DNA from: Mustelus asterias
Lineage: Eukaryota
Direction of reading: 5' to 3'
DNA length: 64,000 nt
Assembly: GCF_964213995.1 (NCBI RefSeq)
Contig: NC_135807.1
Span: 91,884,001-91,948,000 of the forward strand
The translations under genes and the position numbers were made by a program. Shown piece by piece: positions 588-62,430 of this stretch; within the stretch, counting starts at the first letter, position 1; each line of letters starts with the position of its first letter. The notes below the pieces were generated by a model. The model had not been told where the DNA came from. It made no database searches and worked only from the letters and a program-made list of their open reading frames with translations.

Positions 588-1141
588 AATCATAGAATCC
601 CTACAGAGCAGGAGGTGGCCATTCGGCCCATCTTGTCTGCACCAACTCTTACCCAGCTTATCCCTGTATTTACAAAAAGAGAAAACACTGGAAAATCTCA
701 GCAGATCTGGCAGCATCTGTAAGGAGAGAAAAGAGCTGACCTTTCGAGTCCAGATGACCCTTTGTCAAAGCTTGTCCTTTGTCAAAGCCTTTGTCAGCTC
801 TTTTCTCTCCTTACAGATGCTGCCAGATGAGCTGAGATTTTCCAGCATTTTCTCTTTTTGTTTCAGATTCCAGCATCCGCAATAATTTGCTTTTATTCCT
901 GTATTTACCCTGCTAATCCCCCGAACCTAAATACCTTGGGACACTATGGGCAATTTAGCAATGCCAATCCACCTAACCTGCACATCTTTGGACGGTGGGA
1001 GAAAACCAGAACAGACGGAGGAACCCCACACAGACATGGGGAGAACGTGCAAACTCCACACAGTCACCCGAGGCTGCAATTGAACCTGGGTCCCTGGCGC
1101 TGTGAGGTAGCAGTGCTACCAACTGTGCCACCATGCCACCC
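588..1141 (-). mobile_element. HE1-like V-SINE (CR1-type tail), interrupted by a PLE insertion at 674-897
   Basis: tRNA-like head (rc GGTGGCATGGTGGCACAGTTGG...GGTTCAATTG), central core and GGGCCGAATGGCC...ATTCTATGATT tail shared with other copies. Confidence 0.9.
674..897. mobile_element. Penelope-like pLTR fold-back fragment with degenerate hammerhead
   Basis: Inverted arms ~673-740 and ~793-860; flanked by direct repeat cctgtatttac (663-673, 898-908); minus strand TTGACAA-AGGGTC ATCTG GACTC-GAAA-GGTC. Confidence 0.8.
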
Positions 1142-22649: not shown

Positions 22650-22780
22650 CATTCCACTCACCTGATGAAGGAGCAGCACTCCGAAAGCTTGTGATTCCAA
22701 ATAAACCAGTTGGACTTAACCTGGTGTTGAGGAACTTCTTACTGTGCTTTACCTCAGTCCAATGCTGGCATCTCCACATC
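22650..22780 (+). mobile_element. Penelope pLTR 3' end
   Basis: Same sequence as the arms of 23393-24300 and 25322-25572; AATAAA at 22700-22705; ends CATCTCCACAT. Confidence 0.88.
22658..22694 (+). ncRNA. Minimal type I hammerhead ribozyme motif (PLE type)
   Basis: Stem I TCAC/GTGA; core CTGATGA (22662-22668) + A; stem II GGAG-cagca-CTCC; GAAA (22683-22686); palindromic AGCT stem III; H17=U at 22690. Confidence 0.8.
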
Positions 22781-23392
22781 AGAAAGAATCACAATATTTA
22801 CTATTGCCATAACTCAGCATCATTGGGAGAGGCAAGGCCTTGTGGGGTATGGACTAGGAGAATTGGAAACAAACTGCTGAACCATTTCATTCCAATTACT
22901 CATTATTGTTCTTGCCTGATAGCTTCCTTTGCTAACCATCTGCTTCTGCTTTTGTGCCTTCAGGTACTAACCTGCTTAAACTATTACTTTCCACATTGTC
23001 AATTGGTTCCTGTCTATTAAAGCATTTAATTGTAAAGCTCCTGCTTCATGAAATTAATGGATAGAAAATCGAAGGACACGGGCACATTTTCACAATCTGT
23101 GCGTCATGTGCTTGGACAAATTATTTTATGAACATAAGCTTTTGTAAACTAACACAAATTCATAAAGTATGCAAAACATCCGTTTATATAGTTTCTGGAT
23201 TCAGAGCTATGAGGGGATTTTCTGCTCCCGTTTTTGGGGCAGGATCAGCGGCAGGAGCGGAAAATCCCACGGGAGTCCCAAACGGTGGTTTGCGCTGGAG
23301 GGATTTCCTGCTCGGATTGTTCTCGACTCTCCCCCACCATCCGCCAAATGAATCAGGAAAACAGGAATCCCAACGTTTAACCTGGCAGGGAG

Positions 23393-24320
23393 CAGTAAGA
23401 AGTCTCACAAAACCAGGTTAAAGTCCAACACGTTTATTTGGTAGCAAAAGCCACTAGCTTTTGGAGCGCTGCCCCTTCATCAGGTGAGTGGGAGGTCTAT
23501 TCACAAGCAGGGCATGTAAAAACACAAACTCAATTTACAAAATAATGGTTGGATTGCGAGCCTTTACAGGTAATCAAGTCTTAAAGGTACAGACAATGTG
23601 AGTGGAGAGAGCGTTAAGCACAGGTTAAAGAGATGTGTATTGTCTCCAGCCAGGACAGTTGGTGAGATTTTGCAAGCCCAGGCAAGTCGTGGGGGTTACA
23701 GATAGCGTGACATGAACCCAAGATCCCGGTTGAGGCCGTCCTCATGTGTGCGGAACTTGGCTATCAGTCTCTGCTCAGCGACTCTGCGTTGTCGTGAAGG
23801 CCGCCTTGGAGAACGCTTACCTGAAGATCAGAGGCCGAATGCCCATGTCCAAGGCGGCCTTCACGACACATGACAACGCAGAGTCGCTGAGCAGAGATTG
23901 ATAGCTAAGTTCCGCACACATGAGGACGGCCTCAACCGGGATCTTGGGTTCATGTCACACTATCTGTAACCCCCACGACTTGCCTGGGCTTGCAAAATCT
24001 CACTAACTGTCCTGTCTGGAGACAATACACATCTCTTTAACCTGTGCTTAACGCTCTCTCCACTCACATTGCCTGTACCTTTAAGACTTGATTACCTGTA
24101 AAGGCTTGCATTCCAACCATTATTTTGTAAATTGAGTTTGTGTCTTTATATGCCCTGTTTGTGAATAGAACTTCCACTCACCTGATGAAAGGGCAGCGCT
24201 CCAAAAGCTAGTGGCTTTTGCTACCAAATAAACCTGTTGGACTTTAAACCTGGTGTTGTGAGACTTCTTACTGTGTTTACCCCAGTCCAACGCCGGCATC
24301 TCCATGTCATGACTACCATC
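23393..24320. mobile_element. Penelope-like element with inverted duplication (GIY-YIG C-terminus + pLTR + HHR in each arm)
   Basis: Arms 23393-23810 and 23848-24273 are reverse complements. Right arm encodes QGGLHDT*QRRVAEQRLIAKFRTHEDGLNRDLGFMSHYL*. Direct repeat agggagcagta at 23387-23397 and 24322-24332. Confidence 0.93.
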
Positions 24321-25321
24321 GAGGGAGCAGTACCCAGGCTGTATCAGGGGGAATATGCCTGGGCAGTGCCAGGGGTTCCATGTGCGGGGGGGGGGGGGGG
24401 GTGTTTTGTGGGGAGGGGGGATTGTTGTGTGGTTGGGTTTTCTCTGATGGGGTAGTGCTGCACAAGTGACTGTTTTATGGGATGGGGGTTGGTGCATGGG
24501 TATTCCATGGGGGTGAATTCCATCAGGGGAGATCTCCATGTCGGGGCCGCAATGTTTGCTGGAGAGAAGGTTAGTTCTATTTCTTTATGTTTTATTTCAG
24601 GCGCCCTCCACCATTGTGGCATCATTGGACCCACCTCTTAACTTTCATTTTAACTAAGTCCCTCACAACACAGCGGAGGAAGCTGTCCTAGTGACCAGAG
24701 GCTTCCAATGCCGTTTTTCCCACCTGCTGCACTACACTGTACAAAAAGTGAGAAAGTTCCACCTCATGTATTCTATTAAGCCTCAACACCAATTCAGACA
24801 ACAATTTTTTAGTGATTGGACAGCCAAAGTAAATAGAGACAAGTGACAAAAGAAATACATTCTCAATAAACACGTTTGGTTCTTGATGCTGGTGCCGTCC
24901 ATCTGAACAATTCATTACCAAAATCACCATTGGTCAATAAATGTTATCAGCTGTCTGAAGATTTGAGAATTTAACCTTCAGTTTCTTTCAATGTCAGAAT
25001 TGTTACAGTGCTGGACGAGGCCATTCAGTCCATCGTGTCTGCCTGGCTCGTCTTGAAAGAAAGAAATGATCAGAAAATGTGGTATCTTTCAGCTGCTGTT
25101 GGTGCTCAGACCATGTACTGCATATGCATGGATGTGGTTAAGATGTGAGACAGAAGTCATGGACTGAATGTTCTTGGCAGTCGGACAATGCAGGAAGGCA
25201 TTGTGAGGGAAGACCTAGATCATCTCACTAAATGACAAATTGCCAGTGGTGACAAACTAGGTGGTGACTCAGTTAAGTCCCACATCCTGCCCAACAGGTA
25301 TTTGGCCTGCATTGAGAGGAC

Positions 25322-25572
25322 ATGTGGAGATGCCGGCTTTGGACTGGGGTGGGCACAGTAAGAAGTCTCACAACACCAGGTTAAAGTCCAACAGGTTTAT
25401 CTGGAATCACAAGCTTTTGGACCGCTGTTCCTTTCCTTCATCAGGTAACTCACCTGATGAAGGAGCAGCGCTCCAAAAGCTTGTGATTCCAGATAAACCT
25501 GTTGGACTTTAACCTGGTGTTGTGAGACTTCTTACTGTGCCCACCCCAAGTCCAACGATGGCATCTCCACAT
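25322..25572. mobile_element. 250-bp palindrome of two head-to-head Penelope pLTR/HHR ends
   Basis: ATGTGGAGATGCC...TTCATCAGGT aactc ACCTGATGAA...GGCATCTCCACAT; near-perfect inverted repeat. Confidence 0.93.
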
Positions 25573-58505: not shown

Positions 58506-59794
58506 TTTGACCTATTTATTTCAACTCTCTGTTTTCTATGTGACAGCAAGTTTTCAATCCATGCTAACCACTTCCTCCAATTCCATGGACTTTTACTTGA
58601 TGCAAACCTCTTATGCGGCACTATGTCAAATGCCTTTTGGAAATCTAAACAAAATACACCTGTAGGTTCTCTTCTATCTCACTGTTACATCCTCAAAGAA
58701 TTTGAGCAGATTTATCAAACATGACTTACCTTTCATAAAACCATGTTGTCTCGGTTTGATTATATTCAGCTTTCCTGAAGGATTAGCTATTTCCTCGTTG
58801 ATAATTGACTCCATTGTCTTGCCAAGAATAGATGTTAAACTAACTGGCCTGTAGTTCCCTGCCTATTGCCTTTCTCCCGATTTGAACATGGGAGTAGCAT
58901 TGGCCGTTTTCCAATCTTCTGGTACCTTCCCGGAATTCAGTGAGTAATGAAAAGTTTCAACCAATGGGTCCATTATCTCTGCAGCCACTTCCATTAAAAC
59001 ACAAGCATGCAGTTCATCGGGTCCTGACAACTTGTCTGCCTTTAGCCCCTTGAGTTTCTCTAATATTCTATCTCTTGTGATTGGGATTTTTGTAAGTTCC
59101 ACCATGTTATTTGAAATGAGCCCATCTGATATCTTAGAGATATTTGCAATGTCTTCCACGGTGAAGACTGATGCAAAAATTTAATTAGCATATACATCAT
59201 TTCTTTGCTGTAATCAATTCACCAGCTTCATTCAGTAGGGGTCCCACATTTACCTTAGCCACCTGCTTCCTATTTATAAAACCATAGAAACTCACACTGT
59301 TTTTATGCTGTGTTCAAGTTTTCCCTCAAAATTCATTTTATCCCTCCTTATGAGCCTTTTAGTCTTTTGCTGCTGGATCCTAAAAACTTCCCAGTCCTTT
59401 GGTCTATCAATATCCCTTGCCACTTTGTATTTCCTGCTTTTCAATTTAACGTTATCCTTGACCTCCTTTGTTAACCATGGATTTTGCCTCTTTCTCATGG
59501 AATCCCTCTTTTTAATTGGGATAAATTCATGCTGAGCATTTTGGACCAACTGTTTGAATGTCTGTAACTACTATCTACTGACTTGTATCTTAGCTTGGTT
59601 ACCCAGTTCACCTTAGACAATTCCTCCCTCATTGCATTATAATTGCCCTTATTTAATTTGAAGACACTGGTTATGGACTGATGGCATTCACCCTCAAACT
59701 GTATCTGGAATCCTATAATACTGTGATCACTACCTCCTCGGGGATCCTTAACCCCACAAGATATTTTATTTATCCTTCTTCATTACACAAAACC

Positions 59795-60722
59795 TGGTTA
59801 GGTGGATTAGCAAATTTGCTGATGACACCAAAGTCGGTGGTGTGGTAGACAGTGAGGAAGGGTGTCGTAGTTTGCAGGAAGACTTAGACAGGTTGCAAAG
59901 TTGGGCCGAGAGGTGGCGGATGGAGTTTAATGCGGAGAAGTGTGAGGTAATTCACTTTGGTAGGAATAACAGATGTGTTGAGTATAGGGCTAACGGGAGG
60001 ACTTTGAGTAGTGTGGAGGAGCAGAGGGATCTAGGTGTATGTGTGCATAGATCCCTGAAGGTTGGGAATCAAGTAGATAGGGTTGTTAAGAAGGCATATG
60101 GTGTCTTGGCGTTTATTGGTAGGGGGATTGAATTTAGGAGTCGTGGCGTTATGTTGCAACTGTACACAACTCTGGTGCGGCCGCACTTGGAGTACTGTGT
60201 GCAGTTCTGGTCCCCACATTACAGGAAGGATGTGGAGGCTTTGGAGAGGGTGCAGAGGAGGTTTACCAGGATGTTGCCTGGTATGGAGGGGAGATCCTAT
60301 GAGGAGAGGCTGAGGGATTTGGGATTGTTTTCGCTGGAAAGGCGGCGGCTAAGAGGGGATCTTATTGAAACATATAAGATGATTAGAGGTTTAGATAGGG
60401 TGGATAGTGATAGCCTTTTTCCTCTGATGGAGAAATCCAGCACGAGGGGGCATGGCTTTAAATTGAGGGGGGGTAGTTATAGAACCGATGTCAGGGGTAG
60501 GTTCTTTACCCAGAGGGTGGTGAGGGATTGGAATGCCCTGCCAGCATCAGTAGTAAATGCGCCTAGTTTGGGGGCGTTTAAGAGATCCGTAGATAGGTTC
60601 ATGGACGAAAAGAAATTGGTTTAGGTTGGAGGGTCACAGTTTTTTTTTAAACTGGTCGGTGCAACATCGTGGGCCGAAGGGCCTGTTCTGCGCTGTAATG
60701 TTCTATGTTCTATGTTCTATGT
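59795..60722 (+). mobile_element. Young 5'-truncated CR1 with open RT C-terminus
   Basis: SKFADDTKVGG in frame with the 260-aa ORF 59842-60624, no stops; (ATGTTCT)n tail. Confidence 0.95.
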
Positions 60723-60792: not shown

Positions 60793-62430
60793 ATTGATTT
60801 ATTATTGTCACATGTATTAGTACACAGTGATAAGTATTGTTTCTTGTATGCTAGACAGACAAAGTATGCGTACATAGAAAGGAAAGAAAGCGTGCAGAAT
60901 GTAGTGTTACAGTCATAGCTATGGTGTGAAGAAAGATCAATTTAATATGAGGTTGGTCCATTCAAAAGTCTGATGGCAGCAGGAATAAGCTGAGTCGGTT
61001 GGTACGTGACCCCAGACTGTTGTATCTTTTCCCTGATGGAAGAAGGTGGAACAGAATATGTCCAGGCTGGGCGAGGTCCTTGATTATACTGGCTGCTTTT
61101 CCGAGGTAGTAGGAAGTGTAGACAGAGTCAATGGATGGGAGACTGGTTTACATGATAAACTGGGTTTCGTTCATGATCCTTTGTAGTTTCTTGTGGTCTT
61201 GAACAGAGCAGGGGCCATACCAAGCTGTGATACAACCAGAAAGAATACATTCCGTACTGCATCTGTAGACGTTGGTGTGAGTCATAGCGGACATGCCAAA
61301 TTTCCTTAGCCTCCTGAGGAAATCAAGGCATTGGTGGGCTTTCTTAACTACAGCATCGGCATGAAGGGACCAGAACCGATTGTTGGTGTTTGAACACCTA
61401 GAAACCTGAACCCCTCGATCATTTCCATTTCCTAACCCATTGATGTAGACAGGGGCATGTCCTTCACTACACTTCCTGAAGTTGATGACTATCTCCTTCG
61501 TTTTGCTGACATTGAGGGAGAGATTATTGTTGTTACACCAGTTCACCAGATTCCCTATCGCTTTCCTATACTCTGTCGCATCATTGTTCGAGATCCGACC
61601 CACTACGCTGGTGTCATCAGCAAATTTGAAAATCAAGTTGGAGGGGAATTTGACCACATTGTCATAGGTGTATAAGGAGTATAGTTAGGAGCTGAGGACA
61701 CAGCCTTGTGGGGCACTGGTGTTCGGTGCTGAGGATGATCGTGGAGCAGGCATTGTTGCCTATCCTTACTGATTGCGGTCTGTGGGTTAGGAAGTCTAAG
61801 ATCCAGTCACAGAGGGAGGAGCCGAGCCCCAGGCCATAGAGTTTGGAGATGAATTTTGTAGGAATAATGGTGTTGAAGGCTGAGCTGTAGTCAATAAATA
61901 CGAGTCTGACATAGATGTCTTTGCTATCCAGGTGTTCCACGGTTGAGTGTAGGGCCAGGGGGATGGCGTCTGCTGTGCACCTGTTGCAGCGATAGGCAAA
62001 CTGTAGTGGAACCAGGCAATCAGGGAAGCCGGAATTGATTTGTGTTATGACTAACCTTTCGAAGCATTTCATTATTATAGATGTCTGAGCCACCAGGCGA
62101 TAGTCATTAAGGCATGCTGCCTGGCTTTTCTTTGGCATAGCAATGAGGTTGTCTTCTTGAAGCAGATAGGAACCTCAGATTGGTGTAAAGAGAGGTTGAA
62201 GATGTCTGTGAATACCCCCACCAGCTGGTCTGCGCAGGATCTGACTGCTCATCTGGGTACCCCATCTGGACCAGTCGCTTTTGGTGGGTTGACTTTTGAG
62301 AAGGCTCCTCTGACATCTGCGATGGTGACCTTGGATACCGGTTCAGCCTAGGCTTCCAGGGTGGAAGGCGTGCTCCCGCTGACCTCTTGCTCAAAATGGG
62401 CATAGAATGTGTTGAGCTCATTTGTGCCGA
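60793..62430 (-). mobile_element. Rex1/Babar-clade LINE RT region, 5'-truncated and frameshifted
   Basis: [64 protein letters not shown]. Confidence 0.92.

What the first reader, a model, noticed from the sequence alone, without database searches (positions are those of the whole stretch)
25322..25572. 250-bp hairpin element made only of two head-to-head hammerhead-ribozyme/pLTR ends
Seen: a near-perfect inverted repeat whose axis (TTCATCAGGT aactc ACCTGATGAA, 25437-25461) sits directly 5' of the HHR core. There is no coding sequence, and both outer ends are pLTR 3' termini (CATCTCCACAT). Both arms share variants absent from the solo copy at 22650 (GAAA->AAAA; CCAAATAAA->CCAGATAAA), so they derive from one template or were homogenised. 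Established: PLE pLTRs carry minimal HHRs, and the metazoan non-LTR retrozymes I know of are tandem direct repeats. Inference: this could be a distinct non-autonomous, MITE-looking ribozyme fold-back retroelement. Transcribed from either strand it would give ~120 bp of dsRNA containing an HHR plus its own antisense, a potential siRNA/ADAR substrate.
Basis: partly seen in the sequence, partly recalled or inferred. Interest (0 to 1): 0.7.

Follow-up and report, generated by a model that had tools for sequence, protein, structure and literature searches.

The report
Penelope stubs joined at RNA start
This 251-base hairpin is two short end-pieces of a Penelope-type jumping gene set head to head, one of thousands in this genome with mostly different centres, likely made afresh at each insertion when two DNA copies that run to the start of the element's RNA are joined, rather than a self-copying ribozyme element.

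Summary
The hairpin is real (arms 90% complementary) and not a one-off: the genome holds at least 2,960 exact head-to-head junctions (control 0). It is not a transposing unit. In a position-ordered sample, 46 of 48 junctions differ, 0 of 48 carry the tail on both arms, and 32 of 48 have their own 9-14-bp target duplication. The parent is a GIY-YIG, Neptune-type Penelope element. Arm 5' ends pile up about 30 nt after a TATA box, 6 nt before the hammerhead core, often with an extra G. Best reading: both cut target strands prime cDNAs that run off the capped RNA 5' end and are joined. This copy is atypical: two tails, no target duplication, shared with orthologues about 10% diverged. Both hammerheads carry G12A, a common CpG decay. 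A 77-bp identical tract hints at arm-to-arm conversion. dsRNA, siRNA and editing are untested. The layout is in print for Penelope elements, and this scan noted the same class in other genomes.

The parts
25322..25355 (-). Left 'tail' (about 34 nt), the optional PLE 3' extension; ends just before the ATG of the parent ORF
   Evidence: tail-less arm ends cluster at 25355-25357 / 25536-25538 in contigs of four organisms (table 7); ORF ATG follows the tail
25356..25446 (-). Left arm body: 5'-truncated pLTR in inverted orientation, stopping about 3 nt short of the inferred RNA start
25407..25448 (-). Left minimal hammerhead remnant: core CTGATGA 25444-25438, stem II broken by a 5-nt insertion, G12->A at 25418; predicted inactive
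   Evidence: G12 as general base is established knowledge
25445..25451 (.). Head-to-head junction; one substitution away from the commonest 9-nt junction class
   Evidence: same junction in L090 and L012
25448..25448 (+). First base of the right arm = inferred transcription start (A of ACTCAC), about 30 nt after the pLTR TATA box, which is absent from the hairpin
   Evidence: inferred; no RNA 5'-end data
25450..25486 (+). Right minimal type I hammerhead: stem I 25450-53/25483-86, core 25454-60, stem II 25462-74, G12->A at 25475, palindromic AGCT, H17 at 25482; predicted inactive
   Evidence: compared with the descriptor in PMC4209133
25448..25537 (+). Right arm body (pLTR from inferred RNA start to the proximal, tail-less end point)
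25538..25572 (+). Right 'tail' (about 35 nt)
25345..25421 (.). 77-bp tract perfectly complementary to 25472-25548; candidate arm-to-arm conversion tract
23393..24321 (+). Longer hairpin of the same family, tail on one arm only, 11-bp target duplication (23387-23397 / 24322-24332), includes the TATA box
22650..22782 (+). Solo 5'-truncated copy of the same pLTR end, starting a few nt before the inferred RNA start

Best explanation
The hairpin is two 5'-truncated ends of a Neptune-type Penelope-like retrotransposon set head to head, likely a dead-end insertion made when both nicked target strands each primed a cDNA on sense element RNA and the two cDNAs were joined at their 3' ends. Shown: parent element, thousands of hairpins, variable junctions, one tailed and one tail-less arm as the rule, 9-14-bp target duplications, pile-up of arm ends about 30 nt after a TATA box, excess G before that base. 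Inferred: the pile-up is the capped RNA start; reverse transcription begun at the 5'-most initiation sites (85-125 nt downstream) runs off there and copies the cap; two such ends anneal through a 4-of-5 self-complementary word, which gives the commonest junction in both orientations. Inferred for this locus: both cDNAs began at the tail site, the target duplication was never made or was lost, both ribozymes later decayed, and part of one arm was converted by the other.
For: Family size: 2,960 exact junctions, control 0; 7,343 exact tail-boundary 29-mers. De novo junctions: 46 distinct of 48, many with fillers copied from nearby element sequence. Tail on one arm: 0 of 48 two-tailed; tail-less ends at 81-88 in 29 of 48, tailed ends at 119-124 in 42 of 48. 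Exact target duplication of 9 bp or more in 32 of 48, usually overlapping both element ends by 1-4 nt. 5' ends: 43 of 79 tailed arms start at -5..+13 of the A in ACTCAC, 3 of 79 at -50..-12, in solo and inverted copies alike. TATA at -28..-32 in 35 of 38 long copies across subfamilies. Base before ACTCAC in the first 100 listed of 2,410 matches (counted by eye): C 59 (template), G 32, T 6, A 3; G is 32 of 41 non-C, p=6e-9 against 1/3; 5 of the 9 G cases fetched have no inverted arm. Against fold-back: the tail-less arm reaches 10 nt or more further 5' than the tailed arm in 9 of 41 adjacent pairs (read); arms do not overlap in L169 and L188, and tail-less solo copies exist; arms of different subfamily in L061 and L067. 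A second PLE family shows the same layout: 820 exact junctions at its hammerhead edge, TATAAA 30 nt upstream in 2 long copies. In vitro a Poseidon protein cuts and extends both strands from two start sites that define the tail (PMC11167929).
Against: No RNA 5'-end data: the start site and cap copying are inferred from DNA only. The pile-up could be an RT stop at hammerhead stem I, and the G a non-templated addition unrelated to a cap. Arms are of the same subfamily in most elements (20 both, 22 neither, 5 discordant at the best site), which fold-back also predicts. This locus does not fit the usual pattern: two tails and no target duplication, so its own origin is less certain than that of the class. 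The junction sample was chosen by a pattern that fixes 10 nt of each arm and comes from the first 45 Mb of one contig. D. virilis Penelope has a TATA-less internal promoter (PMC2377424), so the promoter reading does not hold for all PLEs.
Confidence: 0.72

Rival explanations
1. Self-priming / fold-back: one cDNA (or an antisense RNA template, as proposed for A. vaga) snaps back at the small palindrome at the hammerhead edge and copies itself.
For: Arms mostly share subfamily marks; some junction fillers look like short snap-back copies; model proposed in PMC3846280; a two-tailed, TSD-less copy like this one is what a complete fold-back copy would look like.
Against: A copy cannot extend beyond its template, yet the tail-less arm goes further 5' in 9 of 41 pairs and does not overlap the tailed arm in L169 and L188; solo copies stop at the same base; 2 of 48 elements have arms of different subfamily; the commonest junction has a 1-nt centre facing both ways.
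Confidence: 0.12
2. This two-tailed copy is a secondary product: recombination or deletion between two ordinary one-tailed hairpins (any two are direct repeats through their palindromic body), or loss of a longer ORF-side extension with its target duplication.
For: No target duplication; two-tailed copies are rare and heterogeneous: 105-bp duplication in L008, 11-bp plus filler in L019, flank mirrored in L004; L165 and L166 pair a tail-ended inverted arm with a longer ORF-side arm.
Against: No empty site or second breakpoint was found; both flanks are single-copy and both boundaries are shared by four organisms, so nothing dates a second step. It changes the history of this locus, not the nature of the parts.
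Confidence: 0.1
3. A distinct non-autonomous hairpin retroelement (MITE-like or retrozyme-like) that is transcribed and re-inserted as a unit.
For: High copy number; a preferred junction class, 12 of 48 with a 9-nt spacer; the second family has an even stronger modal junction.
Against: 46 of 48 junctions differ; the modal class faces both ways; arm lengths vary; hairpins lack the TATA box and the ORF stretch that the Poseidon protein needs in vitro (PMC11167929); one hammerhead per strand, paired to its antisense, cannot form the sense-sense dimer that minimal hammerheads need (PMC4209133).
Confidence: 0.05

Closest known systems
Inverted-pLTR insertions of EN+ Penelope-like elements with a one-sided 30-40-bp tail (PMC8557442 passages; PMC3846280 main text; PMC2377424 passages)
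   Same: Inverted 5'-truncated copy next to a direct copy, optional tail, palindromic head-to-head junction, variable target duplication, pLTR running up to or into the ORF start, TATA plus Inr-like word in the pLTR (A. vaga Pen2a).
   Different: Reduced to the last 120 nt of the pLTR on both sides, in thousands of copies; junctions pile up at one base; this copy has the tail on both arms and no target duplication.
Dual minimal hammerheads on opposite strands 100-700 bp apart in Schistosoma mansoni PLEs (PMC4209133)
   Same: Two minimal type I hammerheads in opposite orientation from truncated PLEs.
   Different: Here the cores are about 10 nt apart and both carry G12A.
Poseidon of Anolis carolinensis in vitro (PMC11167929)
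   Same: Both target strands cut and extended; two internal RT start sites that delimit the tail; hammerhead cleavage not needed for insertion.
   Different: Different clade; the paper does not show joining of two cDNAs or run-off at the RNA start.
L1 twin priming (5' inversions; recalled, not read)
   Same: Two target-primed cDNAs joined head to head inside one target duplication.
   Different: L1 arms copy non-overlapping parts of one RNA; here the arms usually copy the same stretch, so the template is reused or there are two RNAs.
Metazoan non-LTR retrozymes (PMC7229834 passages; bioRxiv 10.64898/2026.07.22.740005 parts 1-2 of 5)
   Same: Short, non-coding, PLE-related, hammerhead-bearing.
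   Different: Retrozymes are tandem direct repeats with working type I hammerheads; this is an inverted pair with decayed minimal motifs.

Membership tests
EN+ Penelope-like element, Neptune type (truncated insertion) | Parent ORF with C-terminal GIY-YIG endonuclease | tested here: met
   Pfam PF01541 at its cut-off, E 1.3e-4, in L156; the same element's pLTR is this family
EN+ Penelope-like element, Neptune type (truncated insertion) | PLE-type reverse transcriptase in the same ORF | tested here: inconclusive
   No Pfam family in the N-terminal 524 aa held for L156; RT-like motifs seen by eye in L159 and L164 (motif identity recalled)
EN+ Penelope-like element, Neptune type (truncated insertion) | Cysteine-rich linker before the endonuclease | tested here: met
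   C-x4-C-x2-C motif upstream of the GIY-YIG stretch in L154 and L156; feature as described in PMC3846280; no tree was built
EN+ Penelope-like element, Neptune type (truncated insertion) | pLTR adjoining the ORF start, inverted 5'-truncated copy, 30-40-bp tail | tested here: met
EN+ Penelope-like element, Neptune type (truncated insertion) | Target-site duplication | tested here: inconclusive
   Family: 32 of 48. This locus: none. TSD-less copies are reported in PMC3846280
Minimal type I hammerhead of PLEs | Core CUGANGA and GAAA, extra base before stem II, G10.1-C11.1, palindromic stem III, short stem I | tested here: not met
   Family majority has all of them; both arms here have G12A and the left arm a broken stem II
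Minimal type I hammerhead of PLEs | Self-cleavage as a dimer | not testable with these tools
   needs an in vitro assay
Non-LTR retrozyme | Tandem direct repeats with two or more intact hammerheads | tested here: not met
   inverted pair
Non-LTR retrozyme | Circular RNA | not testable with these tools
   no raw RNA reads available for this stretch
MITE / self-propagating hairpin unit | Constant termini, constant interior and fixed-length target duplication across copies | tested here: not met
   asymmetric, variable ends; 46 of 48 different centres; duplications of 9-14 bp

The most novel reading that the evidence does not exclude
The thousands of short hairpins are a genomic record of an unresolved step of Penelope transposition: a dimeric enzyme primes on both target strands, each cDNA runs off the capped 5' end of sense RNA 6 nt before the hammerhead, copying the cap creates the microhomology that joins them, and no antisense template or ribozyme cut is needed. 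The junctions would then map PLE start sites in any genome without RNA data.
Probability: 0.5. Interest if true: 0.55.

Novelty: new member of a known kind. Interest (0 to 1): 0.3.

Why it matters
How Penelope elements make inverted ends and tails is described as unresolved (PMC8557442). The class gives sharp, testable predictions: RNA start at one base, cap copying, two independently primed arms. These favour two-strand priming over the published antisense self-priming idea. For annotation, these hairpins should be filed as truncated Penelope insertions, not as MITEs, retrozymes or miRNA-like genes. This single locus is a decayed, atypical member and of little importance on its own.

Tried and rejected
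Rfam scan of the window: no hammerhead family at E<=1; the only match over the element is a chance-level miRNA hairpin, E 0.075. A genome-wide count of two-tailed hairpins was not obtained; the frequency rests on 48 sampled loci and 40 best hits. Empty site: both flanks are single-copy in the genome and all four organisms laid carry the insertion. No RNA holder listed. Four guessed-RNA contig sets of other organisms hold family sequence and do not cover this locus's flanks; this is no evidence on expression or editing. Host gene context: 24 of 45 long open frames of the window scanned, two Pfam hits far from the element; intronic or intergenic position unknown. Family-wide homogenisation of arms rejected: within-element difference 7.3% versus between-element 7.9% at non-CpG, non-polymorphic sites. 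A first estimate with an 82-bp identical tract was wrong; the tract is 77 bp. One search's locus table had an offset error and was redone. Two of the 50 junction loci (L081, a second family; L096, unrelated) were dropped before counts. Literature: searches found no paper on hairpins pinned to the PLE start site, cap copying or twin priming in PLEs. Repbase, Dfam, subscription journals and all supplements were not seen and may hold such entries.

Full report
Observation. The window is G000:C7:91884001-91948000 in a 3.68-Gb genome; its repeats look like those of a cartilaginous fish (recalled, not tested). At 25322-25572 two arms align at 90.3% and fold into one duplex of -220 kcal/mol, z -27. 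The left arm has a 5-nt insertion in stem II. There is no target-site duplication. The window also holds a 930-bp hairpin of the same family with an 11-bp duplication and a solo copy.

Family. All 40 places scored by the genome search with the 251-mer match on both strands, as hairpins do. An exact pattern for the head-to-head junction finds 2,960 places, control 0; about 6,700 if 4% decay per site is allowed (rough). An exact 29-mer across the tail boundary finds 7,343. Of the first 50 junction places, 48 belong to the family. They show 46 different junctions; none has the tail on both arms; tail-less arms end mostly at 81-88 nt and tailed arms at 119-124 nt from the hammerhead core. Thirty-two of 48 have an exact duplication of 9-14 bp. 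Twelve have a 9-nt spacer; among these the central base faces one way in 6, the other in 5, and one is unclear (read). A unit copied from one RNA would keep one junction and one orientation, so the junctions form anew at insertion. Two-tailed copies are 4 of the 40 best hits, including this one, each with a different centre and flank pattern.

Parent. Copies that run past the tail enter an ORF whose ATG follows the tail directly. L156 holds 524 open codons and an inverted 3' part with a cysteine-rich stretch and a GIY-YIG domain. That fits the Neptune group as described in PMC3846280. The RT domain was not confirmed by Pfam in the part held.

Where arms stop. In 79 tailed arms from position-ordered loci, 43 begin at -5..+13 of the A in ACTCAC and only 3 at -50..-12; solo copies stop there too. 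Forty-one of the 79 have an adjacent inverted arm. In 35 of 38 longer copies a TATA word lies at -28..-32 of that A, although the spacer differs between subfamilies. The template base before the A is C. Among the first 100 listed matches (counted by eye) it is C 59, G 32, T 6, A 3; G is 32 of 41 non-C, p=6e-9, and 5 of 9 fetched G cases have no inverted arm. I infer a capped RNA start 6 nt before the hammerhead core, with the cap copied by the RT (cap copying by retrotransposon RTs is recalled knowledge). Two cDNAs ending this way can anneal over 5 nt with one central mismatch, which would give the commonest junction in both orientations. The hammerhead cut site lies about 35 nt downstream and is not where arms stop. 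A second PLE family repeats the pattern: 820 exact junctions at its hammerhead edge and TATAAA 30 nt upstream in two long copies.

One cDNA or two. Subfamily marks agree between arms in most elements (p 2e-8 at the best site; 5 of 47 discordant). But the tail-less arm reaches 10 nt or more further 5' than the tailed arm in 9 of 41 adjacent pairs (read), the arms do not overlap in L169 and L188, tail-less solo copies exist, and L061 and L067 join two subfamilies. These favour two target-primed cDNAs over fold-back. In vitro, Anolis Poseidon cuts and extends both strands from two start sites that define the tail, and needs ORF sequence downstream (PMC11167929, parts 1-2 of 4 read). Hairpins lack that sequence and the TATA box, so they are likely dead on arrival.

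This locus. Both flanks are single-copy. Contigs of four organisms cross both boundaries, with about 3% and 10% differences, so the insertion is old and fixed. G12A is present in 29 of 96 sampled arms and is not significantly shared within elements; it is CpG decay. The A->G at 25492 is absent from 95 sampled arms yet present in both arms here. The arms share a 77-bp identical tract; the longest among 39 sampled elements was 56. Such a run has p 0.002 at the family's mean arm-to-arm difference of 9.5% and 0.07 at 5%, and the locus was picked for looking perfect, so conversion is likely but not shown. Across the family there is no general homogenisation (7.3% within versus 7.9% between elements). 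Both ribozymes are predicted inactive. A transcript would hold one hammerhead paired to its antisense, whereas minimal hammerheads need a sense dimer (PMC4209133, parts 1-2 of 4). The dsRNA, siRNA and editing idea stays untested.

What is known. Inverted 5'-truncated copies with a one-sided 30-40-bp tail are standard for EN+ PLEs (PMC8557442, passages). Palindromic head-to-head junctions, and TATA plus an Inr-like word in the pLTR, were described in A. vaga, with antisense self-priming proposed (PMC3846280, main text). Opposite-strand pairs of minimal hammerheads were noted in Schistosoma. Retrozymes are tandem direct repeats (PMC7229834, passages; bioRxiv 10.64898/2026.07.22.740005, parts 1-2 of 5). 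D. virilis Penelope uses a TATA-less internal promoter (PMC2377424, passages). PMC8969392 (passages) lists inverted pLTRs as a curation pitfall. My eight searches found no paper on start-site-pinned hairpins or twin priming in PLEs; supplements, Repbase and Dfam were not seen. This scan's notes hold the same class and similar readings in other genomes (715 notes with these words in at least 54 genomes); I saw them after reaching my reading and they are not independent support.

Verdict. A real, old, decayed and atypical (two-tailed, TSD-less) member of a very common class of minimal Penelope insertions. Not a new self-propagating ribozyme element. The class is of moderate mechanistic interest; the locus is of low interest. 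Interest 0.3.

Noticed in passing
window 672-937: Hairpin of a second PLE family with a 16-bp target duplication (1 mismatch; 658-673 / 893-908), tail on one arm only, junction at its hammerhead edge; at least 820 such junctions in the genome.
   Followed up: partly
second family, L201-L213 and window 740-775: One subfamily has a hammerhead core with U3 and A8 in place of C3 and G8, the covariation reported for Schistosoma PLEs in PMC4209133.
   Followed up: no
window 23393-24321: 930-bp hairpin of the same family, arms 96% complementary over 379 nt, 11-bp target duplication, tail extended 13 nt into the ORF.
   Followed up: partly
L162, L163, L165, L166: Several copies end about 70-100 nt inside the ORF, some paired with an inverted arm that ends at the tail: a likely third, more distal RT start site.
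   Followed up: no
L004:1389-1865: Two-tailed hairpin whose inverted symmetry continues about 110 bp into second-family sequence on both sides, a nested palindrome of two PLE families.
   Followed up: partly
L008:1396-1838: Two-tailed hairpin flanked by an unusually long, about 105-bp direct duplication.
   Followed up: no
window 25442-25449 (+) and family-wide: The antisense strand of the pLTR start reads as a near-perfect splice donor word in most copies, so inverted arms in introns could act as cryptic donors; untested.
   Followed up: no
window 24976-25063: A short high-copy repeat lies in the left flank (depth peak); not identified.
   Followed up: no
window 59752-60621 (+) and 61151-61684 (-): LINE-like remnants: weak RVT_1 and ALKBH8_N Pfam matches.
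   Followed up: no
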